Shown here piece by piece: positions 3,577-61,241 of a stretch of 64,000 nt of DNA. Position 1 is the stretch's first letter. Each line of letters starts with the position of its first letter. Origin of the DNA: a virus; IMG/VR virus record IMGVR_UViG_3300021431_000125. The stretch is one strand, 5' to 3'. The notes beneath the pieces are model-generated. The model saw only the letters and a list, made by a program, of their open reading frames with translations, made no database searches and had not been told where the DNA came from. The position numbers and the translations under genes are program-made.

Positions 3577-4395
3577 TTACCTGACAGGAATTGCACCAAT
3601 ACTGTCAAAACGTTCCCTACCATCCTCATTGGTTAGTTGGAAACCATCAAAGGCTTTCCAATAATGACGTGTGTAAGTAGCTGGAATATTTGGATTTGTA
3701 CGTTCTCCAGTGTATTCAAATTCCTCTTCAACACGGTAAATGAACCGACCGAATTTCTTTCCATCCTCATAATCGTTCCAGTCAACACCAGTCATTTCCT
3801 TAAGGAGGTTAATCTGCTCGTCTGCGTTCAGGCTTTCAAGTTGTTTGTGTGAAATTCTAGCCTGAGCTGCCTGTTGTTTTGAGTTACGGATACAGTCAAT
3901 CTGCCTGTAAAGGAACCAGGCAAACACATCATTATATGTAGGTAGATTCCAACACTTACAGTCAAACTGATATAGTGGCATATCAACAATAGTATCAATA
4001 ACTTGATATGTAGGGATATATTTAATCGCGTGTTGAGTCATTAGATTATTGAACTTTGCCGTTGCCAATGAAGCTATGACAGACAACATTTTGGTAAGTC
4101 TGTAACCGAAGAATGACTCTGTATTCTCATTCTCGAAATCAGTGATAACCAATGAAATCTCATCTGACTGAACATAGCCGAATTTGGCACCTTCCACTTT
4201 GGAACATACATATTTGGCTGTCTCATTCATCATATCAATGAAATTATCGTCAAACGGTTTCTTAAACTTGTCCTTAATCATAGTTGAAAAACTTCTACCG
4301 TCGAGCATGACCATTACATATGACTTAGGCATAAGCTTGTAATCGGTCAAGCCACGGAAATACTCCATTCTGTCTTTTAATGTGTTAAATCTCAT
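3577..4395 (-). CDS. Thg1-like protein (tRNA-His guanylyltransferase family 3'-5' nucleotidyltransferase)
   Basis: SYVMVMLDGRSF...KPFDDNFIDMMNETA and catalytic SDE (YVQSDEISL) align with Thg1 palm motifs; FDCKCWNLP...FAWFLYRQID region also conserved. Confidence 0.85.
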   Translation of the reverse strand: MRFNTLKDRMEYFRGLTDYKLMPKSYVMVMLDGRSFSTMIKDKFKKPFDDNFIDMMNETAKYVCSKVEGAKFGYVQSDEISLVITDFENENTESFFGYRLTKMLSVIASLATAKFNNLMTQHAIKYIPTYQVIDTIVDMPLYQFDCKCWNLPTYNDVFAWFLYRQIDCIRNSKQQAAQARISHKQLESLNADEQINLLKEMTGVDWNDYEDGKKFGRFIYRVEEEFEYTGERTNPNIPATYTRHYWKAFDGFQLTNEDGRERFDSIGAIPVR

Positions 4396-9305: not shown

Positions 9306-10200
9306 ATCTTCTTATATCCTCAATGTCGTTAATTTCGTCAACAACGCCCTGGATTCCTGTAGCCAGTTCAGATAGCATTGTTTTGAGCTCATCGGTTGAC
9401 AATTTCACAATATCATTCAAACAGTCTAGGTCTACATAATCGTCCAAGTTGGTCTTGTCTGTTTGAATACCTTGTTTGAGCTTTTCAGTTCTTTTTGTAA
9501 AATAATCATGAATGTAGTTCAAGTCATATCCCTTCAAATTTTCTTTGTATTCTGGATATATATCGGACAGTGCGGTATTCAACGCCTCATCAAAAAGCTC
9601 CTTTCCGTAGTTTTCTTCAGGTATAAACAAGCAAAATTTGCGAAATGTAGCAATTGTGTCATGTAAGCTTGCAACATTATTCGTGCGAATCATTGGATAA
9701 TATCTGCTGCCGAGTTGAGAATAAATCTGAATTGAAGTTTTTTCAACTCGGAATTCTGAACAAATCCTGTTTATGCGTTCGACATTGCAGAATGCATATT
9801 CATCATTAAGCAAAACTGTATAAACTGGATGGTTTGACAAATCAAGTGTGTTGTTGATAATATCCACGTCAGTAAACTCCAATCCCTCAACTGGTATACA
9901 GTTATGGAGACTGATGAAAGCATAACCGTTTATCCGAAACAGTTTATACTCAACACCGCTTTCGGTATAATATATGATGTTTGTTCCGAAAACATTTTCA
10001 AAACATTCTTTAATTTGTTCCTCACTAGCCTTGGTAATCCCAAGTATATGATATGCACTGTCATATTTCATATGCCCAATGTCGTCTTTCCCGCCTGTAA
10101 AGAACAGCATGTCTTCTGGAAAATGTACCTCGACGCTGTCAGCGTCCTTGGGATTTAAACTATAGTGTCCAAATTTCAATAAAGTTCTTTTCGTTTTCAT
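9274..10200 (-). CDS. hypothetical protein (308 aa)
   Basis: ORF track. Confidence 0.55.
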   Translation of the reverse strand: MKTKRTLLKFGHYSLNPKDADSVEVHFPEDMLFFTGGKDDIGHMKYDSAYHILGITKASEEQIKECFENVFGTNIIYYTESGVEYKLFRINGYAFISLHNCIPVEGLEFTDVDIINNTLDLSNHPVYTVLLNDEYAFCNVERINRICSEFRVEKTSIQIYSQLGSRYYPMIRTNNVASLHDTIATFRKFCLFIPEENYGKELFDEALNTALSDIYPEYKENLKGYDLNYIHDYFTKRTEKLKQGIQTDKTNLDDYVDLDCLNDIVKLSTDELKTMLSELATGIQGVVDEINDIEDIRRFVKKLPIKNK

Positions 10201-10826
10201 TGTCCGTCTTTTTTAATAAGTTCAAAACTATAAGCATACATGTAAGGATTTTCATCCCAAAACTGGTTTCCGTTGATTTTCTTAATAAGGCATTCAAACG
10301 CTTCTTTGGCTGTTGGAAACCATTGCCTACTGGTGTATTTTGGTGTATGTATATCAAACGCATATTTCGGAAGACCGTTTTCCTCCTGCACTTTATCAAT
10401 GAAAATACCTTCTCTCATACAGTCTTCCTCACTAATATCCTGCAGTTTTTCAAGTTTCACATCAGTGACTCTAAGAAAATGCTGCATATACTGACCACTG
10501 ACAAACATCTTGTTATTCCAGCCTGGTAATTCATGAACAGGATAATAACCAGTTATAGTAATACCGTCAAATGTTTTAGAGCCAAATATAAGTGTGTCTG
10601 GTTCACTGTAAAGACTTTCAATTTCTTTGTATGGCTGGGCAACCCCAAGTACATAATCCACATTATACCACGGTTTCTTGAATTGTCCGTTCCATATCAG
10701 TTCCTGATTCTCATTTTCAACCAGTATCTTGTGAGCACGTCTTCTGGTCATTGTCTTAGTACCGTTAAGTACTGCCTGTTGAAGACCGTATTTGGTGCTG
10801 AACATAATTTTATTAATATTAGCCAT
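10197..10826 (-). CDS. ASCH (PUA-like) domain protein
   Basis: N-terminal IMFSTKYGLQQAVLNGTKTMTRR fits ASCH GxKTxExR signature. Confidence 0.55.
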   Translation of the reverse strand: MANINKIMFSTKYGLQQAVLNGTKTMTRRRAHKILVENENQELIWNGQFKKPWYNVDYVLGVAQPYKEIESLYSEPDTLIFGSKTFDGITITGYYPVHELPGWNNKMFVSGQYMQHFLRVTDVKLEKLQDISEEDCMREGIFIDKVQEENGLPKYAFDIHTPKYTSRQWFPTAKEAFECLIKKINGNQFWDENPYMYAYSFELIKKDGQ

Positions 10827-13754: not shown

Positions 13755-14192
13755 TCAGTTTTTAGGGTTATTAATTTCGTTTAGAATTTTCTTCACATTA
13801 GTTTTAAGGTCTGCTGTTCTGTCTTTGTATTCATTCACAAGCCGCTCCAGGTCTTCTGTTCCGATTTCATTTTTGACAATCGCGCTTTTATATTGTGTTG
13901 CCAACAGAAAAGCCATAATTCCATTAGGCAATGGGTTGAAAATGTTGTCCCAACAATCCTGTGTGTTGTATTTGCACCCATCAAGAGATTCATTCATGCA
14001 ACCTTTACACTTGTCGTCAAACTTGGATTTCATCCATGGTTCCAGTTTGCTGACATCCACCGACAGCCTGGACGGGTCTTTCGGAAAATCCTCCAGATAT
14101 TCGTTTTTGTCTAGATAATATCCGTTGAACAGTTTACGGATACGCCTTTTACAGTTTCTTAAACTAGTGAAAAAATCCATAATAAATATCAA
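13755..14192 (-). CDS. hypothetical protein
   Basis: ORF track. Confidence 0.5.
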   Translation of the reverse strand: MIFIMDFFTSLRNCKRRIRKLFNGYYLDKNEYLEDFPKDPSRLSVDVSKLEPWMKSKFDDKCKGCMNESLDGCKYNTQDCWDNIFNPLPNGIMAFLLATQYKSAIVKNEIGTEDLERLVNEYKDRTADLKTNVKKILNEINNPKN

Positions 14193-15025
14193 TTGTGTTT
14201 TAAATACAGGCTTTCATATACATTGTCATGTGTTTTGCCCTTTAGCCGTTTGAATGAACTGTTTCCGCTTTTAATGTACAAATGTTCACTATACAGCTCT
14301 TTCGGTATGTCAATCGTCATGTTGTCCTCACCGCTTACACCATCGTAGCTGAAGGCATATGAGCACTTGGCTGCAGACATGTAGCCGAAAAACTCTTTCT
14401 GGGAAAAGCATGAATCGTACATGCCTTTGGTGTTCGCGTATGGTGGGTCAAGATATATGAAATCATTCTCGTTTGTCGGGTTAATCTGTTTATAGTCAAC
14501 ACACATAAAGACAACATTGTTCCGATTAAATGCTTCCGACCAACCTTCAAGTATGTTTTCAAAAGTCTCTGGTATGATACCATCACGATTCATGTGATAA
14601 GGCGAATTGAACTCGCCTTTTGAATTATAGCGTATCAGCCCGTTATAACACATTCTGTTCAAGACTATGAAATCAAAGGGGTTATGGTCTTTGTTGAATT
14701 TATCCCTAAGTTTGCTATAAAACTCACTTTTGTCGGCGACACTATCCAATTGTTTCATAGCAAACCACATCATTGCATAGTATGCTGACAATGATTTATG
14801 ATTATCTTTAATCAAGTTCAAGACAGAAATCAAGTCTTCGTTATGGTCAGTTAACACATATCTTCCTACCTTATGTTCACTATCCATAAGTGCTCTGGCA
14901 ACAGAACAGCCCCCACAGAAAGGCTCGTAGTAGGTAGTGATTTCTGTAGGGAATTTTGATATGATTTCAGATGCCTGGCTCCTTTTGGAACCCGACCATT
15001 TGATTACAGGTGGAATTGTTTTCAT
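14189..15025 (-). CDS. Dam-family (D12 class) N6-adenine DNA methyltransferase
   Basis: IKWSGSKR, FCGGCSV (motif I), IYLDPPY (motif IV). Confidence 0.85.
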   Translation of the reverse strand: MKTIPPVIKWSGSKRSQASEIISKFPTEITTYYEPFCGGCSVARALMDSEHKVGRYVLTDHNEDLISVLNLIKDNHKSLSAYYAMMWFAMKQLDSVADKSEFYSKLRDKFNKDHNPFDFIVLNRMCYNGLIRYNSKGEFNSPYHMNRDGIIPETFENILEGWSEAFNRNNVVFMCVDYKQINPTNENDFIYLDPPYANTKGMYDSCFSQKEFFGYMSAAKCSYAFSYDGVSGEDNMTIDIPKELYSEHLYIKSGNSSFKRLKGKTHDNVYESLYLKHN

Positions 15026-15360
15026 TAAGCTATTTTTATCTGTTTTTTGCTAACATCTGGTTTTGGGTGTGGCACTTCATCAAAATTCAGTTCATCCAAA
15101 GCATCATATATCTTTTTGATATTTGAAATTGATTCTCTATTTGTACACCAAAGGGTTTCAGTTATTGAGTTACTGCCACTAACTTTATATCTGATATTCA
15201 ATTCTCCAATCAAAAGGTTTCCAACCCTTACACTTGGGTCAAAGAACACATTTGTTATTTCTGGTGTTATTTCAACCAATTCCTGGGAATCATAAGCCTT
15301 TAATTCATCGCCATCATATACTTTAATTATCGTGTCTAACAGTATGTACTTTGATTTCAT
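15025..15360 (-). CDS. hypothetical protein
   Basis: ORF track. Confidence 0.5.
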   Translation of the reverse strand: MKSKYILLDTIIKVYDGDELKAYDSQELVEITPEITNVFFDPSVRVGNLLIGELNIRYKVSGSNSITETLWCTNRESISNIKKIYDALDELNFDEVPHPKPDVSKKQIKIA

Positions 15361-15800
15361 AGTTCACGTTTTGATTGTCTGTCAATATCCCTCTCTTTAA
15401 TATCCCTGCGCTTGTCGTATGTTTTTTTGCCACTGGCAATAGCAACCACCACTTTGCACATGTTTCTCTCATTGATGAAAAGTTTATATGGCACAACAGT
15501 CATTCCTTTGATTTTAACCTGTTCGTATATTTTCTTCAATTCACTTTTGTTCAAGAGCAGTTTCCTGTCCCTGTTGTAATCCTTGACTGTATACGTGTCG
15601 TGTTCACGTTTTGGAGTCACCACCGAATTTTTGAGAAACAACTCATTTCCAACAAAATGGCAATAAGATTCAGAAATGTTGACACGCCCATCTCTGATTG
15701 CGCTGATTTCCGCGCCGTTCAACACAATGCCAGCAATATAGGTATCCTTGAACTCATAGTTGAAACTTGCCTTTTTGTTTGTAATTTCAAATCTTTTCAT
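15357..15800 (-). CDS. smpB: SsrA-binding protein SmpB
   Basis: NKKASFNYEFKDTYIAGIVLNGAEISAIRDGRVNI and C-terminal tail GKKTYDKRRDIKERDIDRQ match SmpB throughout; 147 aa. Confidence 0.85.
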   Translation of the reverse strand: MKRFEITNKKASFNYEFKDTYIAGIVLNGAEISAIRDGRVNISESYCHFVGNELFLKNSVVTPKREHDTYTVKDYNRDRKLLLNKSELKKIYEQVKIKGMTVVPYKLFINERNMCKVVVAIASGKKTYDKRRDIKERDIDRQSKREL

Positions 15801-22763: not shown

Positions 22764-23063
22764 TCAGATTTCTTCACTTATTACGATGGCTCCTTGTATC
22801 CATATGCGTTTACCGTCAAGGTCGAAGAACACCTGGTTGTCCGCACCGTCGTCACGTATGTCGAATTTGCCTTTGTATGTCCTGATGGTATCTCCGTTAT
22901 AACTGTATACCGTCAATGTACGGTTGAGACCGCCACCCCAGTCACTGCCAATGCTTTTTATTTCACGTTTGCAGCTTTGTGGACCAAAAGCAAAAAATAC
23001 AAAAACCAAACCAACGATAATAAGTATAACCACAAAAATACCAAAAAATGTTCTTTTTTTCAT
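22764..23063 (-). CDS. small N-terminally membrane-anchored protein immediately downstream of sigma factor
   Basis: FFGIFVVILIIVGLVFVFFAF TM then ~70-aa soluble domain; start overlaps sigma stop. Confidence 0.5.
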   Translation of the reverse strand: MKKRTFFGIFVVILIIVGLVFVFFAFGPQSCKREIKSIGSDWGGGLNRTLTVYSYNGDTIRTYKGKFDIRDDGADNQVFFDLDGKRIWIQGAIVISEEI

Positions 23064-23599
23064 ATTCTAAAATATTTTCCGTAATTAAAATTCAATTTGT
23101 CTTTAATCCTATAATATCTGGACTTGATTGTACTTTCGGGCATCCCAAACATTTTGGAAATCTCCTTGAATGTATATTCGTCGATAGCGACAAGATTCAC
23201 CAAAGTACGTTCCTCTTCAGTCAGGCAGCGCATGATTTTCAGAATCAAGTCCTGTTTCTCATAATCGGTAGCCAAATCAAAATCGTCGCTTAATTCAGGA
23301 AGGAATTCACTCTCTATTGGAAGATACCGATACTTCATATCCTTCTTGTAGCGGTTAATGATTTGCCTCATAATTATCCTGTGCATCCATCCCTCAAAGG
23401 TTCCGTCACCCCTGTATTTTTTGATATTGGCAAATATTGACACGAAACCTTCAACCAACACATCCTGGGCAATGTCATCGTCAGCCGAATATCGTCGGCA
23501 TAAAGCATAAAACTTAGGACTGTACTTGTCATATAAGGCTCGTTGCATTGAAGGGTTGTTGTTTCGACACCCTTCTATAATGTTGTCTATATTATCCAT
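23060..23599 (-). CDS. ECF-type (sigma-70 family group 4) RNA polymerase sigma factor
   Basis: region 2 ALYDKYSPKFYALCRRYS..DIAQDVLVEGFVSIF...FEGWMHRIIMRQIINRYKK and region 4 LTEEERTLVNLVAIDEYTFKEISKMFGMPESTIKSRYYRIKDKL. Confidence 0.85.
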   Translation of the reverse strand: MDNIDNIIEGCRNNNPSMQRALYDKYSPKFYALCRRYSADDDIAQDVLVEGFVSIFANIKKYRGDGTFEGWMHRIIMRQIINRYKKDMKYRYLPIESEFLPELSDDFDLATDYEKQDLILKIMRCLTEEERTLVNLVAIDEYTFKEISKMFGMPESTIKSRYYRIKDKLNFNYGKYFRI

Positions 23600-26780: not shown

Positions 26781-27809
26781 TCATTTAATTGGTATCAGTG
26801 TTTCGGAATCAACATCCAATTGTCTGCAATTGTATTTAACAGCCTCCCTTGATGCGTTGGCATAACAATATATACAGAAATGCGGACAAGTGTTGTATGC
26901 CCCTATATCTTTGCTTAACATGCACCCACATTCCTTCCGTTGTCCTCTGTCTTTCCACCAATTGGTTGATACTTTATCGATAGACAATAACCCGCCATAA
27001 TTCAGAAAATTCAAAAAGGAAATATCATTAGCTGCAATTTTCTTGAATTGCTCACTGTCAATACACCTGTTATGCTGGATACCATATTGTTCAAGGTTGA
27101 ACTTTTCGCCACAGGTAGCCAGTTCAATCTCCCAGCCATCCTCTTTCCATTTGTCGCGTAGAGCGGCTATTCTGGACGCTACGGCATTCATCAGGTCTGG
27201 GGTGTATTCACTGTCCAGTATCGTTTCGTTGGTGAAACCGTTGCCGTATTTTAATAGGTTGGTTTGGACTTTTTTGTAGCAGTTGATGTCAACAAAACTG
27301 AAAACAAGTTTGTTTGTATACCCCTTTATTTTGTTTCCAATGTTTTCAATCCTGCCGATGAGTTCATCCTGGTTCATCGGCATAAGCGGGTCAAACCGCC
27401 AGATTACCCTGTCGGCCCCTACAGTATTCGACAAGTTGATAAATGTCTCAATACGCTTGTCAAGCGGCGGCAAATTCGGTTCAAACCCCTCTTTTTCATA
27501 GTCGTTCAAAGTGTATTGGAAATATGTGTGTATACCCTGCTCGTCAAGTTCCTTTTGGAAATCTATGATTTCCTTGTGGGGATTCTTTGTCCAGAACACA
27601 ATACCTTTCACTTTCTCATATGATATATATTGAGGTATGTTAGTATAAGGGTTGTTCCATACAGAATAGCCTGCTTTCCAACGGTTCATGAACCAGTTGA
27701 AATGAAAAGCGGGAATATCGGTGGAACGGCTGACGGACAATATGACAGGTGCTATAGCATCAACTGTATTGCCGTTCGGTAGTGTGAGTTTAACTTTTTC
27801 GTGCGTCAT
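26781..27809 (-). CDS. hypothetical protein with C-terminal Cys cluster (DUF1848-like, low confidence)
   Basis: CGCMLSKDIGAYNTCPHFCIYCYAN. Confidence 0.55.
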   Translation of the reverse strand: MTHEKVKLTLPNGNTVDAIAPVILSVSRSTDIPAFHFNWFMNRWKAGYSVWNNPYTNIPQYISYEKVKGIVFWTKNPHKEIIDFQKELDEQGIHTYFQYTLNDYEKEGFEPNLPPLDKRIETFINLSNTVGADRVIWRFDPLMPMNQDELIGRIENIGNKIKGYTNKLVFSFVDINCYKKVQTNLLKYGNGFTNETILDSEYTPDLMNAVASRIAALRDKWKEDGWEIELATCGEKFNLEQYGIQHNRCIDSEQFKKIAANDISFLNFLNYGGLLSIDKVSTNWWKDRGQRKECGCMLSKDIGAYNTCPHFCIYCYANASREAVKYNCRQLDVDSETLIPIK

Positions 27810-34060: not shown

Positions 34061-34999
34061 TTACTTTATGTTCTCAATCATTTCGATATTATCCATGTAC
34101 CACTTGTGGAAATTGTGGTATTCAACATCACCGACTTCATTAACCACATTACGAAGGTCATCGTAGTCACAATGCTTGATTTTGACAATGATGCGGTTAC
34201 CGTGCGGGTCTTTGATTGGGATGACTGGTCTTGCAACAATGCCTTCTTCGATAAAATCAGGATTGTCAACATTAGGAACCTTGGTTTTGAAGCCTTCAAT
34301 CACCATTTTCTCAGCCTCCTCGATAGTCATTTGACCAAGATAAGGGACAACATCCAAACCGAGATTGCCACAGTATTCGTCCAACATATTGATTGGAATC
34401 CACCAACCCTGCTGGTAGATATCAAATACACTGAAACGGTTATTCTCCTTGTCATAGTTGCCGCCGCATTTCTGGATTTTCTTTCCGAAAAACTCGCCAT
34501 AGATGTATACAGGAACCTCTTCCAGCTGTACACCATAGAAATTGCCGTTCACTTTGAAGTCAACCTCATTGATGTTTGCGATAGGTTCACCACACTCAGC
34601 CCAATAATACTGAATCTGGTTTTTGCCATTCAGAACTGGGGTGAAACGGGCACTCTCTGGCGGAAACATTTCAGTCAGGATTGGTTTGATTCGTTCAATA
34701 ACCTGGTCAAGCATGGCTTTCTGACCCGTTCCGACAATATCGGCGTTATCAGTCTTGCCGCCACAGAAACATTCGCCTGTTGATGGAAGATAGATAATTT
34801 TCGAATTCGTACCGTCAATCTTTGAGAAACAGTCGAATTTCAAATCCTTGATATACTCCATGTAATCGTCGGAGAAACAACCCATTATAATTTTGTTTTG
34901 GAATTTAGCCCAAATCTTGTTCGGAAGTTCCACCTTGTTAAGGTTTTTGTAACGACGGTACAAGGTGTTGATTTTAGTATAAGTTAATGTCTTTTGCAT
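34061..34999 (-). CDS. Rnl2-family ATP-dependent RNA ligase (covalent nucleotidyltransferase superfamily)
   Basis: motif I FSKIDGTN (KxDG), III IYGEFFG, IV EGIVARP, V IIVKIKH in correct order and spacing. Confidence 0.75.
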   Translation of the reverse strand: MQKTLTYTKINTLYRRYKNLNKVELPNKIWAKFQNKIIMGCFSDDYMEYIKDLKFDCFSKIDGTNSKIIYLPSTGECFCGGKTDNADIVGTGQKAMLDQVIERIKPILTEMFPPESARFTPVLNGKNQIQYYWAECGEPIANINEVDFKVNGNFYGVQLEEVPVYIYGEFFGKKIQKCGGNYDKENNRFSVFDIYQQGWWIPINMLDEYCGNLGLDVVPYLGQMTIEEAEKMVIEGFKTKVPNVDNPDFIEEGIVARPVIPIKDPHGNRIIVKIKHCDYDDLRNVVNEVGDVEYHNFHKWYMDNIEMIENIK

Positions 35000-35052: not shown

Positions 35053-35826
35053 CTATGCTTTTACTTTGAAAAGCTTTTCAACCGCTTTCTTGGTGTTGGT
35101 GGGGTTCATCGCATTGGTAACCTCCTTGCTCCATATGCACTCGAACCTGTCTTCTGGCATTTCATATTCCGAAACCAGTACAGTGTGCCCCTTTCTTGTC
35201 ATGTCCACACACCAATCATAAAAACGGTCATAGTCAAATCCCCTGGAGAACTGGTATTCCTTGGTGTTCCGATAAGGCGGGTCGCAATATATCAGTGAAT
35301 TGGGCGGAATCTCGATATCGTAATAATCCCCGCTTTGCCATTGCACATCCTGAAGATATGGAACCTGTTTCATTGTGTTGGCGATATTCTCCCTGATGTA
35401 GTCACGTTCCTTGCCGTTTGAGCCCATCACTTTGTGTCCAGAATACCCTCCATCGAAGAAACGACCGTTGAAGGAAGCCATATACCCAACCCAGCCGATA
35501 AGGTCGTCACTGTATTTTCCGTCCTCTACAAAAGTCTTTACCATATCCAGAAACTTCAGGTCGGTTTTTCCGTTGAAACAGTTACGCACATCGGAATAGA
35601 AATCCTTCACTATCTCAGTAGGCATTTTTTTGCCCGCTGTAAGCGATTTCCACATGGCTATAAGGTATTTGTTCTTGTCCGATGCAATACGCGGTTCTGG
35701 GACGTGCTGAAGCACCGAACAGCTGCCACAAAACGGCTCAACATACCGCTGCCCTGGCTTGCGATAGCTCATGATTATAGGCAGAATATCCTTAACAATT
35801 CGGTTTTTGTTACCTTGATATTTCAT
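35053..35826 (-). CDS. second Dam-family (D12 class) N6-adenine DNA methyltransferase
   Basis: YQGNKNR, EPFCGSCSV (motif I), IYCDPPY (motif IV). Confidence 0.8.
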   Translation of the reverse strand: MKYQGNKNRIVKDILPIIMSYRKPGQRYVEPFCGSCSVLQHVPEPRIASDKNKYLIAMWKSLTAGKKMPTEIVKDFYSDVRNCFNGKTDLKFLDMVKTFVEDGKYSDDLIGWVGYMASFNGRFFDGGYSGHKVMGSNGKERDYIRENIANTMKQVPYLQDVQWQSGDYYDIEIPPNSLIYCDPPYRNTKEYQFSRGFDYDRFYDWCVDMTRKGHTVLVSEYEMPEDRFECIWSKEVTNAMNPTNTKKAVEKLFKVKA

Positions 35827-39673: not shown

Positions 39674-40465
39674 TTACTTGATATTGATAAACGGTATTGA
39701 ATTTCCCATCATGTAGGTAGGTAAAGTACCGTTCCATTTCTGCACAGCCTCATATTCCACAAGTTTCGGGTTGTTGGCAAGGGAGTTGGCTTTGATTCGC
39801 ATGGCTTCAGCTTCAGCTTCGGCTGCAATCTTTGTCTGTTTTGCCTTTTCCTCAACCTGGATAGTGACATTCTTGGCTTTCAATGCAGCCTGTTCAGCGA
39901 CCTGTTTTTCCTTAATGGCTGTTTCAAAAGCATCGTCAAAATCGATATCAACAAGCTGGAACTGAATGTTGGTGAAATATCTATTGTCCAGTGTCTGTCT
40001 CAACACCTCTTCAATATTCCTGCGTACAGCGTCGCGGTTTTCCACAATCTGGGTTGCGGCGAAATTGCCAAAAGCCTCTTTCATTGCCGAGCGGATATAA
40101 GGCACAACGATACGGTTATGGTAATCATCGCCGACGTTTTTCATGAGCTGGCTGACATTTTCCCGAACCAGGTCGTAGTTGATGGTATAGTCAACGACAG
40201 AGGTCTGCACGTCACGGGTGTATGAGTTTTCCTGACCGTCGAATTTTTTCTGCTGGATGTTGACTTTCTTCACCTTCTGCACAAAAGGCAGTTTCATGTG
40301 GAGACCGTCGTTGATTACACTGTCGCTCATTTTGCCGAATGTGCTGAGCACACCTCTTTCAGTGGATTTGACTGTGTAGAAAGTTGAGGACAACACCACA
40401 AGTGCAAACAGTCCAAGCACACACCATAGAATAAGTTTCGTTCTGTTCATTTCGTTCTGTTTCAT
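39674..40465 (-). CDS. SPFH / band-7 (prohibitin/stomatin-like) membrane protein
   Basis: N-terminal TM, then STERGVLSTFGK...SPFH core and C-terminal Ala/Glu-rich coiled coil (AEQAALKAK...AAEAEAEAMRIKA). Confidence 0.8.
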   Translation of the reverse strand: MKQNEMNRTKLILWCVLGLFALVVLSSTFYTVKSTERGVLSTFGKMSDSVINDGLHMKLPFVQKVKKVNIQQKKFDGQENSYTRDVQTSVVDYTINYDLVRENVSQLMKNVGDDYHNRIVVPYIRSAMKEAFGNFAATQIVENRDAVRRNIEEVLRQTLDNRYFTNIQFQLVDIDFDDAFETAIKEKQVAEQAALKAKNVTIQVEEKAKQTKIAAEAEAEAMRIKANSLANNPKLVEYEAVQKWNGTLPTYMMGNSIPFINIK

Positions 40466-52200: not shown

Positions 52201-52800
52201 TTAAACACTAATCAGCGACTGCAGTTTCTCCTTGTGGCTTTCAGTCTGCGGTGTTCCAGCGAAGTTGTAGTAATTGAACAGGATTATCAGCATTTCGTCA
52301 GTAACCTTACAGTCTGTGTATGAATAATACACTGTCGCAGTAAGCGAATTTGCCCTTGATTTGAAGAACATCTTACTTTCATAGTCGAAATCCTTGTAGT
52401 ATACATCGCGACCGTTGACAACAATCGGAAACTCATTATGCACGAATTTCTGTATTGTCATAAGTCTCTGTTTTCCGTCAATGACGAGGTTGACCTGACC
52501 GTTTCGGCTGGTGTGGTCTTTCATGTCCTGCACAATAACCAAACTATCAATGGGTTTCTCAAGCAGGATGGACATGATGAACTCACGCTGCTGGAAAAGT
52601 TCCCACACGTAGGGACGCTGAAGGTTGATGCCGTATGTAGGTAAATAGACATCGAAATCATATACCAAATCACGCTCTGGGTCAGGATTTTCCAAAGCCT
52701 CAACTAGTCTGAAATCAAGCAATACCCCCTTGTTTATATGTATTTTCTTTGGAATCTTGTGTAAATTGTTACACTGTTTTATTTCGTCAAGTAAACTCAT
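52201..52800 (-). CDS. DUF262 / ParB-like nuclease-fold protein (GmrSD N-terminal-domain family)
   Basis: ...QRPYVWE...SILL...LVIDGKQRLMTI = DGQQR signature of DUF262. Confidence 0.6.
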   Translation of the reverse strand: MSLLDEIKQCNNLHKIPKKIHINKGVLLDFRLVEALENPDPERDLVYDFDVYLPTYGINLQRPYVWELFQQREFIMSILLEKPIDSLVIVQDMKDHTSRNGQVNLVIDGKQRLMTIQKFVHNEFPIVVNGRDVYYKDFDYESKMFFKSRANSLTATVYYSYTDCKVTDEMLIILFNYYNFAGTPQTESHKEKLQSLISV

Positions 52801-56614: not shown

Positions 56615-57661
56615 TCATTTGACTCTGTAGCTATCAATCTTTTTAATGATGCTAACATTGTTAATTAAAGGCTGTCCATCAGTATCTTTACCGACATAAT
56701 CACCCTTTACAAGATAACACGGTCTATCATCATATTCAATCAAATGTTGTTGAGTATATAAAGTAGTTTTTGTTATAGGTAAACTTAACCCTAAAACAAT
56801 ATCTCCTTTATCTGTTTTAAAAGCAGGATAAACAGACACTCCATTTTCGGTACCAACTTCTATTTCTCCCTGGTAAATCTTAGATTTTTCATCAGTCGGA
56901 ATTTCACCAAAACGAATATATAGTTGTTCTTGTTTACCTTGTTTTTCAAGCCAGGCAATGCATTCGTCAATCTCAAAAGTAGCAGCATGGTGAGTCTTTT
57001 GTAATTTGAGAAAGTGAATACAATTTTTCCTTATCCTCTCATCTTCTTCACTCCACTCATACTTAGGCTGAGGTCTAAGGGATTTGAGCCAGTCTTTATC
57101 CTCGGATACAGCGAATCTTGTCCGCGTGAATGTTGCCCCTTTCTTGCACATTCCTTCAAGACGTTCCAAAATACTATTTAGATGTTCTTCATCCTCTTCG
57201 CTCCACTCAGCAGTTTTCTGCTCACCTTGCTTTTCTTCCAGCATCAGTTTATCCAAATCTGACAGTAATATGTAATCACACTCACGCCCAAGGACTGAAT
57301 TAAGACTATAATCATTACCATCCTTTATCAGATAAATTAGTTTGCCTTCACCGTTTCCAGCAATACCGTCTTTCCAATGGTTCCAAATGGATGTTTTCTT
57401 TGTTTCTTTCATGCCTTGCTTTTCAAGCCAAGCAATAGCATTTGTTATTTCTTTATATCTATCGGAATCTATTGAATCGAGTGCTCTAAGAAAAGTGAGT
57501 TCATTATTTATGAAGTTCCTTATCTCCTCATCCTCACTCTCTTTGAGTGCAGGATATTCATACTCTATGAAGTCCACAAGTGCTTTGTTGTCTTTATTTG
57601 CTGCCTTGATTTTCTTTATGTCCTTAAGAGCCTTCTCGTATTTTTCTTTGTAATTTTCCAT
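56615..57661 (-). CDS. family C repeat protein (348 aa; WLEKQGK / WLKSLRPQPK / EEDE.IRK modules)
   Basis: internal repeats IAWLEKQGMKE..., DWLKSLRPQPKYEWSEEDERIRK, CIAWLEKQGKQE; paralog of 59721-61241. Confidence 0.6.
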   Translation of the reverse strand: MENYKEKYEKALKDIKKIKAANKDNKALVDFIEYEYPALKESEDEEIRNFINNELTFLRALDSIDSDRYKEITNAIAWLEKQGMKETKKTSIWNHWKDGIAGNGEGKLIYLIKDGNDYSLNSVLGRECDYILLSDLDKLMLEEKQGEQKTAEWSEEDEEHLNSILERLEGMCKKGATFTRTRFAVSEDKDWLKSLRPQPKYEWSEEDERIRKNCIHFLKLQKTHHAATFEIDECIAWLEKQGKQEQLYIRFGEIPTDEKSKIYQGEIEVGTENGVSVYPAFKTDKGDIVLGLSLPITKTTLYTQQHLIEYDDRPCYLVKGDYVGKDTDGQPLINNVSIIKKIDSYRVK

Positions 57662-59720: not shown

Positions 59721-61241
59721 TTAATAATCAGTACAAAGTGCAAGTCGGATTGTGTCTTCTCCAAGAATTTCTATTGCTTTTTTAGCAAGTTCTTCCGATT
59801 TAAAGTAAACATCGAGACAAGGTGTACTAGTTAAATATCCAACTGTTATTTCACCATCGAGCATCGATATATAATATTTATGCTTTACTACATCACACCA
59901 ATCAGGTTGCCACCCATCGTTAAGATATTTAGCAACATTCATGAGCATATTAATAGCACGGAGTTTTTCAAATTGCCGTTTACTGGTTGCATTACATCGA
60001 TAATGGCAACCTTCATCCCCATCATTATAAAATTCAGCATAACCACCAAGGTCATCTATGGTATGAATAAAATTATCTTTAAATAACTCTCTCGCTACAT
60101 CTTTATAAGTAAGTTTCTTCTCAATCCTCTTCAATTCCTTCTTCCCAGCGTCCCATTCATAACCCGCTTCTTGCATCTTTTGGAACAGGCGGTCACGCTG
60201 TTCTTTGGTGGCTGGTTTAGACGATTCTTTATATCCACAATGAATTGCATCATCAGCAGTACAGAAATTATTAGTAATGCTTACACAACAATAAAAATGT
60301 GCCTCTATACCATCAGTATTTTTATATATAAATGGACAACCATTCTCACTGGCAAGTATATCACCGTCCTTTGCGTCTTGAATTGTCCAAAGATGAAATT
60401 GAGACTCGCAAAATTTCTTTGATATTTCACGTGTCTTTTCATCATCACAATATTGCACTATATAATTTCCTTCTATACTTATAATTTGACATGGATTATC
60501 TATAGTAATCCAATCTCCTTCACTGAACTCTTGTTTTGGTTGAGGTCTAAGGGATTTTTTTTGGAAGAAATCAATTGCAGCACTCCAGCCATCATCAAAG
60601 GTCGGCTCATCGCTATGATATTCAATTTTATCAAGAACATCATTATAGGCATTTTTCTTTGCTTGAGCAAGTTCTTCATCAGTAACAGTAAAATTCTGTG
60701 GCTGGACACGTTCTTTAAGGGATTTGAGCCAATCTATTTTGTCTTGTGCAATATTCTTTTCAAATACAGTTGAAGAGTTTGATTTAATTGCCTCTATTTC
60801 ATTAATTACCTGCGCCCACATCTTTTCATCATCTTCACCCCAAAGAATTTTTACACAATTCTGATTATCAGCTTTTTCTTCATTCATAACATCAAGCATA
60901 GTTTTACCTTGGTCAAAAGCTTTCTTTTGTATGCAAGGAAAGTTGCAACAATTAAGCATAGGATGATTGCATTTTTCGCAAGGGTCTTGAGTTTCTTTAC
61001 CCTGCTTTTCAAGCCAATCAATCCATGGTGTTACCTTTTCATCTGTTATATTTTCACTTACAAAAGGAGATTTAAGGAAATTAATTAGACCTTTCCTTAT
61101 CTTCTCATCCTCGCTCATTTCGAGTTCAAGAATCATTCTTTCTGCCTTTTCTCTGCAGTCGGCTAACATATAAGGATATAAGTCTTTGATAGACTTTGCT
61201 AAATGTTCATACTTCTGTTTGTAATTTTCCATTTTATTCAC
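59721..61241 (-). CDS. family C repeat protein (506 aa, Cys-rich central part)
   Basis: MENYKQKYEHL..., PWIDWLEKQGKETQD, KIDWLKSLKERVQPQ, KKSLRPQPKQEFSEGD repeats; paralog of 56615-57661. Confidence 0.6.
   Translation of the reverse strand: MNKMENYKQKYEHLAKSIKDLYPYMLADCREKAERMILELEMSEDEKIRKGLINFLKSPFVSENITDEKVTPWIDWLEKQGKETQDPCEKCNHPMLNCCNFPCIQKKAFDQGKTMLDVMNEEKADNQNCVKILWGEDDEKMWAQVINEIEAIKSNSSTVFEKNIAQDKIDWLKSLKERVQPQNFTVTDEELAQAKKNAYNDVLDKIEYHSDEPTFDDGWSAAIDFFQKKSLRPQPKQEFSEGDWITIDNPCQIISIEGNYIVQYCDDEKTREISKKFCESQFHLWTIQDAKDGDILASENGCPFIYKNTDGIEAHFYCCVSITNNFCTADDAIHCGYKESSKPATKEQRDRLFQKMQEAGYEWDAGKKELKRIEKKLTYKDVARELFKDNFIHTIDDLGGYAEFYNDGDEGCHYRCNATSKRQFEKLRAINMLMNVAKYLNDGWQPDWCDVVKHKYYISMLDGEITVGYLTSTPCLDVYFKSEELAKKAIEILGEDTIRLALCTDY

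What the first reader, a model, noticed from the sequence alone, without database searches (positions are those of the whole stretch)
15357..15800. Phage-encoded SmpB (trans-translation cofactor) with no tmRNA detectable in the window
The protein matches SmpB along its length, including the characteristic C-terminal basic tail GKKTYDKRRDIKERD. A viral SmpB implies manipulation of ribosome rescue. No tmRNA-like locus was found: there is no intergenic gap long enough and no GGTTCGA-type T-loop. The gene is directly followed by a Dam-family methyltransferase. The phage may use host tmRNA with its own SmpB, or carry a tmRNA elsewhere.
Basis: partly seen in the sequence, partly recalled or inferred. 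Interest (0 to 1): 0.65.

Follow-up and report, generated by a model that had tools for sequence, protein, structure and literature searches.

The report
Jumbo-phage SmpB whose tmRNA lies elsewhere
A roughly 245-kb phage-like genome from sheep rumen encodes its own ribosome-rescue protein SmpB and, 52 kb away and outside the window, its own two-piece tmRNA, so this is a complete virus-borne rescue kit of a kind already noted in huge phages, not an orphan cofactor.

Summary
The ORF at 15357-15800 (minus strand, 147 aa) is a full-length SmpB. It scores above NCBIfam equivalog cut-offs, keeps the C-terminal tail motifs, and is under purifying selection (dN/dS about 0.05). The window holds no tRNA or tmRNA by ARAGORN or by Rfam at strict and lax thresholds.

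The apparent orphan status comes from where the window ends. The window is byte-identical to part of a 245,598-bp metagenome scaffold. On that scaffold, 52,226 bp from smpB and about 37 kb before window base 1, lies a circularly permuted (two-piece) tmRNA. ARAGORN reads its tag as GNTNYSYRMAA, and Rfam RF04321 scores it 64.4 bits (cut-off 47). It sits in an array of at least 28 tRNAs.

Both SmpB and the tmRNA look Bacteroidota-derived. The scaffold also carries a CCA-adding enzyme, two RNA ligases and Thg1-like, RlaP and YqeY genes; a Ro-like gene was seen only in a 97%-identical relative.

SmpB and tmRNA in huge phages, and two-piece tmRNAs in phages, are already published. I also found a tmRNA in the SmpB-bearing Lak-A1 megaphage.

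Verdict: a real, functional-looking new member of a known kind. The permuted tmRNA and its unusual ...RMAA tag end are the only mildly novel parts. No capsid, portal or terminase gene was seen in the roughly 121 kb of the scaffold I inspected.

The parts
15357..15800 (-). smpB: 147-aa SsrA-binding protein, ATG start, TGA stop. Its partner tmRNA is outside the window, at window-equivalent -37,210..-36,869 (scaffold 132,971-133,312, + strand).
   Evidence: Pfam PF01668 E 1.6e-46. NCBIfam equivalogs above cut-off. PDB SmpB chains to E 7e-36. dN/dS 0.05 against the 97% relative. tmRNA on the same scaffold.
15360..15431 (-). Codons for the SmpB C-terminal tail (residues 124-147: GKKTYDKRRDIKERDIDRQSKREL). 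In solved ribosome complexes of bacterial SmpB, this segment occupies the empty mRNA channel.
   Evidence: It aligns to E. coli G132-K133-K134, H136 (Y here, as in T. thermophilus) and D137-K138-R139. These positions are invariant or nearly so in 45 clade members and 80 cellular Bacteroidota SmpBs.
15573..15623 (-). Codons for the SmpB central loop (about residues 60-76). The loop is present but diverged and variable in length within the phage clade.
   Evidence: Alignments. The Y, G and H residues that are invariant in cellular Bacteroidota are replaced here (K64, H67, K73). The role of the loop is taken from PMC4131195.
15797..16246 (-). Upstream ORF (136-149 aa depending on the start), with no family hit. 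Its stop overlaps the smpB start by 4 nt.
15025..15360 (-). 111-aa ORF between smpB and the methyltransferase, with no family hit. Its start overlaps the smpB stop by 4 nt.
14189..15025 (-). D12-class N6-adenine DNA methyltransferase. It varies between strains and is not functionally tied to smpB.
   Evidence: PF02086 E 1.7e-38. About 805 bp covering this gene are absent from the 97%-identical UViG. It is also absent next to smpB in the relatives L009 and L010.
3577..4395 (-). Thg1-like tRNA 5'-end nucleotidyltransferase. This is context: part of the RNA-repair and translation toolkit.
   Evidence: Precomputed Pfam PF04446 on L012 8432-9250, which maps to window 3577-4395.
34061..34999 (-). 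RNA ligase (context: RNA repair).
   Evidence: PF09414 E 1.2e-13 and phrog_548 E 3.5e-20.

Best explanation
The ORF encodes a working SmpB that belongs to a jumbo phage-like genome of about 245 kb from sheep rumen, whose host is probably a member of the Bacteroidota. It is one half of an element-encoded trans-translation pair. The other half is a two-piece (circularly permuted) tmRNA, 52 kb away in the element's tRNA array.

Proposed mechanism, inferred from bacterial SmpB-tmRNA:
- The tmRNA precursor is cut by tRNA-processing enzymes. A tRNA-like gene lies 8 nt upstream of it.
- CCA is added, because it is not encoded. The element has its own CCA-adding enzyme.
- The RNA is charged with alanine (G3.U70 is present).
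- SmpB binds the tRNA-like domain. EF-Tu delivers the complex to ribosomes stalled on truncated mRNAs.
- The SmpB tail (GKK, Y128, D129-K130-R131) probes the empty mRNA channel.
- Translation resumes on the tag frame, adding (A)GNTNYSYRMAA, and stops at UAA. This frees the ribosome and marks the product.

During infection this would keep ribosomes available when mRNAs or tRNAs are being cut, whether by host shut-off or by anti-phage RNases. It would work alongside the element's tRNAs, RNA ligases and Thg1-like, RlaP, Ro-like and YqeY genes.

Shown: the identity of both genes, their presence on one scaffold, their conservation, purifying selection on smpB, and covariation in the tmRNA. Inferred: activity, partner specificity, processing into two pieces, and the role in infection.
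For: - SmpB identity and intact motifs.
- Purifying selection: 13 synonymous against 3 non-synonymous differences, dN/dS 0.05.
- Conservation at a syntenic position in relatives of 65-72% identity, on a 386-kb contig (L009) and a 32-kb contig (L010); P0041 is recorded on contigs up to 402 kb.
- tmRNA on the window's own scaffold: ARAGORN permuted tmRNA with tag GNTNYSYRMAA; Rfam RF04321 at 64.4 bits against cut-off 47, E 2.4e-11. The window is identical to that scaffold.
- The same tmRNA occurs in a 97% relative and in a relative of about 77%.
- Three compensatory base-pair changes are seen. The intervening segment between the two pieces is the only fast-evolving part.
- The acceptor stem with G3.U70 was read directly from the sequence.
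- CCA-adding enzyme and YqeY; second RNA ligase and phosphoesterase on the scaffold, and a Ro-like protein in the 97%-identical relative; Thg1-like and RlaP; RNA ligase in the window.
- Published precedent: huge phages carry tmRNAs and SmpB (PMC7162821). Jumbo-phage RNA-repair and ribosome-rescue toolkits are described in PMC7824862.
Against: - There are no expression or biochemical data.
- Several positions that are invariant in 80 cellular Bacteroidota SmpBs are changed in this clade: E. coli K42 to S or V, S43 to A, and the central-loop Y, G and H residues. Normal tmRNA or ribosome contacts are therefore assumed, not shown.
- The tag ends in ...YRMAA, not the host-type ...YALAA, so its fate after tagging is uncertain.
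- smpB and the tmRNA are 52 kb apart on opposite strands, so genomic linkage gives no support for partnership.
- No virion hallmark gene was found in the roughly 121 kb of the scaffold that I read, or in the relative's copy of the 19-kb gap.
Confidence: 0.72

Rival explanations
1. The phage SmpB mainly serves the host's own one-piece tmRNA. It would top up a limiting cofactor after host gene expression is shut off, and the phage tmRNA would be a separate or redundant function.
For: The generic RNA-binding residues L91 and K124 (E. coli numbering) are kept. The phage tmRNA has exactly the same acceptor stem and T loop as standard tmRNAs that carry Bacteroidota-type tags (GENNYALAA and similar), so cross-recognition is plausible. 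smpB and the tmRNA are unlinked: 52 kb apart on opposite strands.
Against: The scaffold carries its own tmRNA, conserved with the same tag in a relative of about 77%. This reading is not exclusive of the best explanation.
Confidence: 0.15
2. The pair is a hijacking or decoy device rather than a rescue aid. It would compete with host SmpB-tmRNA and attach a different tag (...YRMAA), so that rescued products escape the normal fate of ssrA-tagged proteins or take a different one. Alternatively, SmpB would sequester host tmRNA.
For: The tag end differs from the native Bacteroides GETNYALAA. A similar ...FRMAA end is read, with relaxed ARAGORN settings, in the tmRNA of Lak-A1 megaphage. The SmpB clade has specific substitutions at otherwise invariant positions. 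A tRNA-like-domain-only phage tmRNA that inhibits host tmRNA is documented for DS6A (PMC4131195).
Against: The tail motifs needed for productive entry into the ribosome are intact. The tag still ends in Ala-Ala followed by UAA, as working tags do. No experiment bears on this.
Confidence: 0.08
3. The scaffold is not a virus but a megaplasmid, another large element, or a mis-assembled cellular fragment, so this is not a viral SmpB.
For: No capsid, portal or terminase hit was found in the roughly 121 kb inspected. Al-Shayeb et al. note that large putative plasmids carry similar translation gene sets.
Against: - A 97%-identical 123-kb contig and several relatives of 168-380 kb are listed in IMG/VR.
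- Gene content is phage-like: many PHROG hits, HNH endonucleases inside a tRNA array, T5orf172, ThyX, RNA ligases, and long one-directional blocks of small orphan ORFs.
- No cellular housekeeping genes were seen.
- The nearest cellular SmpBs are only about 50-54% identical and sit in ordinary chromosomal contexts.
Confidence: 0.05

Closest known systems
Bacterial SmpB (E. coli, Thermus thermophilus, Aquifex aeolicus; PDB 7ljp, 1j1h, 4v8q, 7acj)
   Same: Alignment runs end to end, with 15 solved SmpB chains matched (best E 7e-36). Same length class. The N8-K9-K10 motif, L82 and K116 (E. coli L91, K124) and the tail motifs GKK, Y128 and DKR are present.
   Different: It is encoded on a phage-like element. 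It is only about 50-54% identical to the nearest cellular (Bacteroidota) proteins. E. coli K42 and S43 and the central-loop residues differ from all 80 cellular Bacteroidota sequences compared. E. coli E31 is I here, but that is also the norm in cellular Bacteroidota.
SmpB and tmRNA genes of huge phages (Al-Shayeb et al. 2020, PMC7162821), including Lak megaphages of Prevotella
   Same: SmpB on phage genomes above 200 kb together with large tRNA sets. Lak SmpB is the best GenBank-phage match at 45-46% identity. Lak-A1 also has a tmRNA (Rfam RF00023, 54 bits, E 4.7e-18) far from its smpB, and it lies near amber-suppressor tRNAs, as here.
   Different: The Lak tmRNA is the standard one-piece form and this one is permuted. 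Lak SmpB keeps the K of the EIKSIR motif. There is no DNA similarity between this window and GenBank phages, nor between this tmRNA and them. GC content is about 36-39%.
Two-piece (permuted) tmRNAs: Alphaproteobacteria, some Betaproteobacteria and Cyanobacteria, and phages such as Melnitz (PMC9004378)
   Same: Gene order is acceptor piece, then intervening segment, then coding piece. It matches the general permuted model RF04321 above threshold. Phage-borne two-piece tmRNAs are documented: 53 of 133 unique phage tmRNAs, mostly marine.
   Different: It does not reach the lineage-specific models (beta_tmRNA 29 bits against cut-off 84). Its acceptor stem, 5' end and tag start resemble one-piece Bacteroidota tmRNAs. 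Bacteroidota genomes almost always have the standard form: 24,380 standard against 48 permuted. It comes from a rumen element that also encodes SmpB; the Melnitz paper mentions smpB only as the bacterial partner of tmRNA.
Mycobacteriophage tmRNAs (Bxz1 group) and the tRNA-like-domain-only tmRNA of DS6A (PMC4131195)
   Same: Phage-encoded components of trans-translation.
   Different: That paper lists those phages under 'phages with ssrA' and I did not check them for smpB. Here both partners are present.

Membership tests
SmpB (Pfam PF01668; NCBIfam TIGR00086 / NF003843) | Profile match above the curated whole-protein cut-off, covering the whole domain | tested here: met
   PF01668 158.2 bits (cut-off 27), residues 6-146 against model 2-140/143. 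NF003843 160.7 bits against 130; TIGR00086 158.9 bits against 119.1.
SmpB (Pfam PF01668; NCBIfam TIGR00086 / NF003843) | C-terminal basic tail with the GKK hinge, an aromatic residue at E. coli position 136 and the D137-K138-R139 motif | tested here: met
   G124-K125-K126, Y128 and D129-K130-R131 are present, and the tail runs to residue 147. These positions are conserved in 45 clade members and 80 cellular sequences. That the motifs matter for function is from my knowledge of the SmpB mutagenesis literature.
SmpB (Pfam PF01668; NCBIfam TIGR00086 / NF003843) | Residues reported as needed for tmRNA binding (E. coli E31, L91, K124; recalled from the literature, and I could not find the paper in the library) | tested here: inconclusive
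   L82 and K116 (= L91, K124) are invariant. The E31 position is I22, but it is T, V or I in 71 of 80 cellular Bacteroidota SmpBs, so this is a lineage trait and not a phage-specific loss.
SmpB (Pfam PF01668; NCBIfam TIGR00086 / NF003843) | Central loop present (it is lost only in a few reduced genomes) | tested here: met
   The loop is present at about residues 60-76, but it is diverged and variable in length within the clade.
SmpB (Pfam PF01668; NCBIfam TIGR00086 / NF003843) | A tmRNA gene in the same genome | tested here: met
   Permuted tmRNA on the same 245,598-bp scaffold, 52,226 bp away.
SmpB (Pfam PF01668; NCBIfam TIGR00086 / NF003843) | [quoted passage not shown] | not testable with these tools
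   This needs binding assays and complementation.
Permuted (two-piece) tmRNA (Rfam RF04321) | Covariance-model score above the gathering threshold over the full model | tested here: met
   L155 10671-10889: 64.4 bits against 47, model positions 1-213/213, E 2.4e-11 and 3.3e-12. Relatives score 63.7 and 69.3 bits.
Permuted (two-piece) tmRNA (Rfam RF04321) | Permuted gene order (T arm and 3' acceptor strand upstream of the 5' acceptor strand), alanine identity pair G3.U70, and a tag frame ending in Ala-Ala plus a stop codon | tested here: met
   ARAGORN calls it permuted, with tag GNTNYSYRMAA*. Reading the sequence gives ...TTCGG-TTCGAAT-CCGAA-CAGGTCC-A, then about 55 nt, then GGGCTTG..., with G3.U70. 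No second T arm or acceptor lies downstream.
Permuted (two-piece) tmRNA (Rfam RF04321) | Helices supported by compensatory changes | tested here: met
   Two T-stem pairs change U-A to G-C, and one pair in a post-tag hairpin changes A-U to G-C, between the scaffold and UViG_3300031760_000001. Only two independent lineages were available, so support is modest.
Permuted (two-piece) tmRNA (Rfam RF04321) | The transcript is processed into two base-paired RNAs | not testable with these tools
   The intervening segment is hypervariable, with a 36-nt insertion in the relative. That fits excision of the segment but does not prove it.
Jumbo / huge tailed phage | Genome above 200 kb | tested here: met
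   The scaffold is 245,598 bp. IMG/VR lists relatives of 244,784, 235,679, 232,397 and 227,189 bp.
Jumbo / huge tailed phage | Virion hallmark genes (major capsid, portal, large terminase) | tested here: inconclusive
   None were found in scaffold positions 102,708-142,725 and 161,952-242,895 by precomputed Pfam or in three PHROG scans of 28 selected proteins. Positions 1-102,707 could not be read.

The most novel reading that the evidence does not exclude
The element runs a private trans-translation system rather than a copy of the host's. Four observations lead to this reading:
- Its two-piece tmRNA arose by an independent permutation of a Bacteroidota-type one-piece tmRNA. The acceptor stem is identical, and the tag starts G-x-T-N-Y as in Bacteroides GETNYALAA.
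- Its SmpB has diverged at positions that are invariant in cellular Bacteroidota.
- The tag ends in an aromatic-R-M-A-A degron that is also read in the Lak megaphage tmRNA.
- In both phages the tmRNA gene lies near amber-suppressor tRNAs.

The system might therefore clear ribosomes that run off host or early mRNAs once TAG is being read through, and mark those products with a phage-specific tag.
Probability: 0.12. Interest if true: 0.7.

Novelty: new member of a known kind. Interest (0 to 1): 0.35.

Why it matters
The result shows that a large phage-like element of a gut or rumen Bacteroidota host can bring both partners of the main bacterial ribosome-rescue pathway, embedded in a broad tRNA and RNA-repair toolkit. 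That supports the published view that huge phages take over and protect translation. It also gives a concrete, clonable pair (147-aa protein plus a tmRNA gene of about 340 nt) for testing whether phage trans-translation helps infection or counters RNA-cutting defences.

There is a practical lesson as well. 'Cofactor without partner' calls made on a genome window, or on ARAGORN alone, are unsafe. Here the partner was 52 kb away, and in Lak-A1 ARAGORN at default settings missed a tmRNA that Rfam found.

Tried and rejected
1. 'Loss of a tmRNA-binding residue': E. coli E31 is I22 here. I rejected this as phage-specific because 71 of 80 cellular Bacteroidota SmpBs have T, V or I there.
2. A functional link between smpB and the Dam-type methyltransferase. 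Rejected: a 111-aa ORF lies between them, the methyltransferase is absent from the 97% relative, and it is absent next to smpB in more distant relatives.
3. Walking along the IMG/VR contig with the DNA search gave a 5-kb chunk with no new sequence. The search for related loci with the end-most protein worked instead.
Protein ids obtained through the listing of cluster members were accepted.
A local ARAGORN run recovered only six further tmRNAs from it (three standard, three permuted), besides the two viral-contig copies already known.
6. blastn of the tmRNA and megablast of 12 kb of the window against GenBank phages found nothing.
7. The hunt for virion hallmark genes by Pfam and PHROGs found none. 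Hits to the 626-aa ORF of the relative align mainly to its central part (query residues about 190-606), under differently annotated proteins (exonucleases, HNH endonucleases, terminases). With its LAGLIDADG domain, that looks like an intein.
8. TAG recoding inside the window: there is no gain in coding density when TAG is read as sense (0.893 to 0.905), so no evidence for it here. TAG is simply a rare stop, 8 of 126.
9. tmRNA next to smpB in relatives: none within 10 kb in L009, L010 or L018. Only 2 of 42 other SmpB-bearing IMG/VR contigs have one within 3 kb.
10. A literature search for the E31/L91/K124 mutagenesis paper found nothing in the library, so that point rests on memory.

Full report
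**Observation.** The minus strand of window 15357-15800 carries an ATG-to-TGA ORF of 147 aa.
- It matches Pfam SmpB end to end (E 1.6e-46).
- It exceeds the curated cut-offs of both NCBIfam SmpB equivalogs (160.7 bits against 130, and 158.9 against 119.1).
- It aligns over its full length to solved SmpB structures, best 7ljp at E 7e-36.
- PHROGs holds a matching phage protein family, phrog_6791 (E 1.2e-41).

The window contains no tRNA or tmRNA by ARAGORN, Rfam gathering thresholds or Rfam at E<=5. The T-loop motif GGTTCGANTCC occurs only at chance level and with a mismatch. Two details do not. A 111-aa ORF separates smpB from the D12 methyltransferase. Non-coding gaps of 300-470 nt do exist in my ORF map.

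**Is the protein intact?** I aligned it with E. coli SmpB, 120 database homologues and 80 cellular Bacteroidota SmpBs.
- It keeps N8-K9-K10, L82 and K116 (E. coli L91, K124).
- It keeps the tail elements G124-K125-K126, Y128 (E. coli H136; Y in T. thermophilus) and D129-K130-R131.
- The one reported RNA-binding position that differs is E. coli E31, which is I22 here. That position is T, V or I in 71 of 80 cellular Bacteroidota proteins, so it is a lineage trait.
- Against a 97%-identical relative the gene shows 13 synonymous and 3 non-synonymous differences, giving dN/dS of about 0.05.
- Real clade-specific departures from cellular invariants exist and are unexplained: E. coli K42 becomes S or V, S43 becomes A, K48 becomes R, and the central-loop Y, G and H residues are replaced.

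**Where it comes from.** The exact protein is encoded on a 245,598-bp ENA metagenome scaffold (SHIW14-1_SAMN02144230 scaffold_31) and on short contigs of GCA_001684375 (AUXO01) and JGI sample 3300002641. The window is byte-identical to scaffold positions 170,182-234,181.
- A 123-kb IMG/VR contig is about 97% identical in DNA.
- Relatives at 65-73% protein identity occur on contigs up to 386-402 kb. Where I could read the context (L009 on the 386-kb contig; L010 and L011 on 20-32-kb contigs), smpB sits at a syntenic position: smpB, a 315-aa phrog_2072/DprA-like gene, HAD_SAK_2, then Metallophos.
- The nearest cellular SmpBs are all Bacteroidota, at about 50-54% identity, in ordinary chromosomal settings.
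- Gene content of the scaffold is phage-like. It has long one-directional blocks of small orphan ORFs, a phage-type ATPase (phrog_2376), RNA ligases, ThyX, T5orf172, a sigma factor, and HNH endonucleases inside a tRNA array.
- No capsid, portal or terminase gene was seen in the roughly 121 kb I could read, so 'phage' is well supported but not proven.

**The missing partner.** I walked leftwards along the near-identical IMG/VR contig with the search for related loci and reached a large tRNA array that contains a tmRNA. I then obtained the corresponding part of the window's own scaffold through a neighbouring 130-aa protein.
- On that scaffold ARAGORN calls a permuted tmRNA at L155 10639-10980 with tag peptide GNTNYSYRMAA.
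- The Rfam model tmRNA_permuted (RF04321) matches L155 10671-10889 at 64.4 bits (cut-off 47, E 2.4e-11) over the whole model.
- In scaffold coordinates this is 132,971-133,312 on the plus strand. That is 52,226 bp from smpB and about 37 kb before window base 1.

Reading the sequence gives a T arm TTCGG-TTCGAAT-CCGAA, then the 3' acceptor strand CAGGTCC with discriminator A and no encoded CCA. About 55 nt of intervening sequence follow, then the 5' acceptor strand GGGCTTG, which pairs with a G3.U70 wobble. The frame GGC AAC ACA AAC TAT TCT TAT CGC ATG GCT GCC TAA comes next.

The same tmRNA, with the same tag, is in the 97% relative, in a Logan contig, and in a relative of about 77% that is 244,784 bp long. 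Between the two lineages the mature parts are nearly invariant. Two T-stem pairs and one hairpin pair change in a compensatory way, and the intervening segment is rewritten with a 36-nt insertion. That is what excision of this segment would predict.

A tRNA-like gene ends 8 nt before the acceptor piece, which would give tRNA-processing enzymes a cutting site. This last point is inference.

**Origin of the tmRNA.** Standard one-piece tmRNAs recovered from metagenomes with tags GENNYALAA, GNNNNYALAA and GENKYALAA have exactly the same acceptor stem and T loop, and a nearly identical 5' end. The native Bacteroides tag is GETNYALAA (bioRxiv 10.1101/2025.03.18.644028), against GNTNY... here. Bacteroidota genomes almost always carry the standard form: 24,380 standard against 48 permuted (PMC11915505 Table S2). 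The lineage-specific permuted models do not fit; beta_tmRNA scores 29 bits against a cut-off of 84. An independent permutation of a Bacteroidota-type tmRNA in this phage lineage is therefore plausible, though unproven.

**Context and likely role.** The scaffold also encodes:
- at least 28 tRNAs, including one with anticodon CUA;
- a CCA-adding enzyme and a YqeY-like protein;
- a second RNA ligase, a phosphoesterase and an exonuclease;
- RlaP and a Thg1-like enzyme;
- an RNA ligase inside the window.

The 97%-identical relative additionally carries a Ro-like RNA-binding protein, in the part of the scaffold I could not read directly.

This is the RNA-repair and ribosome-rescue repertoire described for jumbo phages (PMC7824862). 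I therefore favour an element-encoded trans-translation pair that keeps ribosomes free during infection. The mechanism is taken from bacterial SmpB-tmRNA biology and is inferred, not shown.

**What is already known.**
- IMG/VR holds 43 contigs with SmpB relatives, many above 200 kb. Two of them have a standard tmRNA within 3 kb.
- Two-piece tmRNAs in phages are documented for Melnitz; 53 of 133 unique phage tmRNAs are two-piece.
- As a comparison I read the complete Lak-A1 megaphage (541,643 bp). It has a full-length SmpB. ARAGORN at default settings finds no tmRNA, but Rfam finds a standard tmRNA at 223,026-223,421 (54 bits, E 4.7e-18), close to two amber-suppressor tRNAs. With relaxed ARAGORN settings its tag reads DDEIDFRMAA, ending in RMAA like the tag here.

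**Verdict.** The finding is real and correctly identified, but it is a new member of a known kind. The 'no tmRNA' aspect comes from where the window ends. The permuted form of the tmRNA in a Bacteroidota-type setting, the shared ...RMAA tag end, and the SmpB substitutions are modestly novel and untested.

Noticed in passing
L155 16800-16873 (scaffold about 139,132-139,205); window-wide stop-codon count: The tRNA array includes a tRNA with anticodon CUA, an amber suppressor that ARAGORN labels 'Pyl'. In the window TAG is a rare stop (8 of 126 ORFs). Reading TAG as sense does not raise coding density, so recoding, if any, would be elsewhere in the genome, for example in late genes.
   Followed up: partly
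L286 25026-25421 (Lak-A1 MK250016.1 223,026-223,421, minus strand): Prevotella megaphage Lak-A1 has a standard tmRNA by Rfam (54 bits, E 4.7e-18) that ARAGORN at default settings misses. With relaxed settings its tag reads DDEIDFRMAA, sharing the ...RMAA end with this element's tag. It lies 2-3 kb from two amber-suppressor tRNAs.
   Followed up: partly
window 14189-15025 and 35053-35826: The window holds two D12-class adenine methyltransferase genes. The one near smpB is an insertion/deletion difference: about 805 bp are absent from the 97%-identical IMG/VR contig.
   Followed up: partly
L018 (ENA ERZ28612984 STEW19-1 scaffold_2, 408,053 bp), smpB at 10001-10456: A 408-kb contig carries an SmpB (58% identical) that NCBI attributes to 'uncultured Methanobrevibacter sp.'. 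There smpB is followed by grpE- and dnaJ-like genes in a one-directional, mostly orphan gene block. It looks like a huge phage or plasmid binned into an archaeal MAG. This may bear on the 'archaeal tmRNA' reports.
   Followed up: no
L155 11937-12073, 12211-12334, 12747-12852; L110 6642-6778, 6916-7038, 7451-7556, 9593-9720: Rfam gives full-length tRNA matches of 104-137 nt that ARAGORN does not call. They are possibly tRNA genes with insertions or introns inside the array.
   Followed up: no
L102 19147-21027 (IMG/VR relative; equivalent to scaffold about 154-156 kb): A 626-aa ORF on the opposite strand carries a LAGLIDADG domain. Its phage-database matches align mainly to the central part of the query, under differently annotated proteins (exonucleases, HNH endonucleases, terminases), so the host protein of this likely intein is unidentified.
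   Followed up: partly
L010 1-319 (relative carrying P0041): A ClpP-family protease gene lies about 10 kb upstream of smpB in a relative of 65% identity. ClpP is the protease that degrades ssrA-tagged proteins in bacteria. No ClpP was seen in the window.
   Followed up: no
window 59721-61241, 56615-57661, 1771-2826: The largest ORFs of the window (506, 348 and 351 aa) have no Pfam or PHROG match at all.
   Followed up: partly
window 52201-52800, 39674-40465, 23060-23599, 26781-27809: Other annotated genes in the window are a GmrSD_N-like domain (type IV restriction-like), a Band_7 protein, a sigma-70-family factor and a DUF1848 protein.
   Followed up: no
L280 464-858, L186 243-546, L264 1322-1706 (JGI metagenome contigs): Three further permuted tmRNAs share this element's T loop and 3' acceptor strand. 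Their tags are GNINIADYTGLKEAA, GAKTRTFAIAA and ANDSQFALAA, and one lies beside tRNA genes. Permuted tmRNAs with this acceptor type may be more widespread.
   Followed up: no
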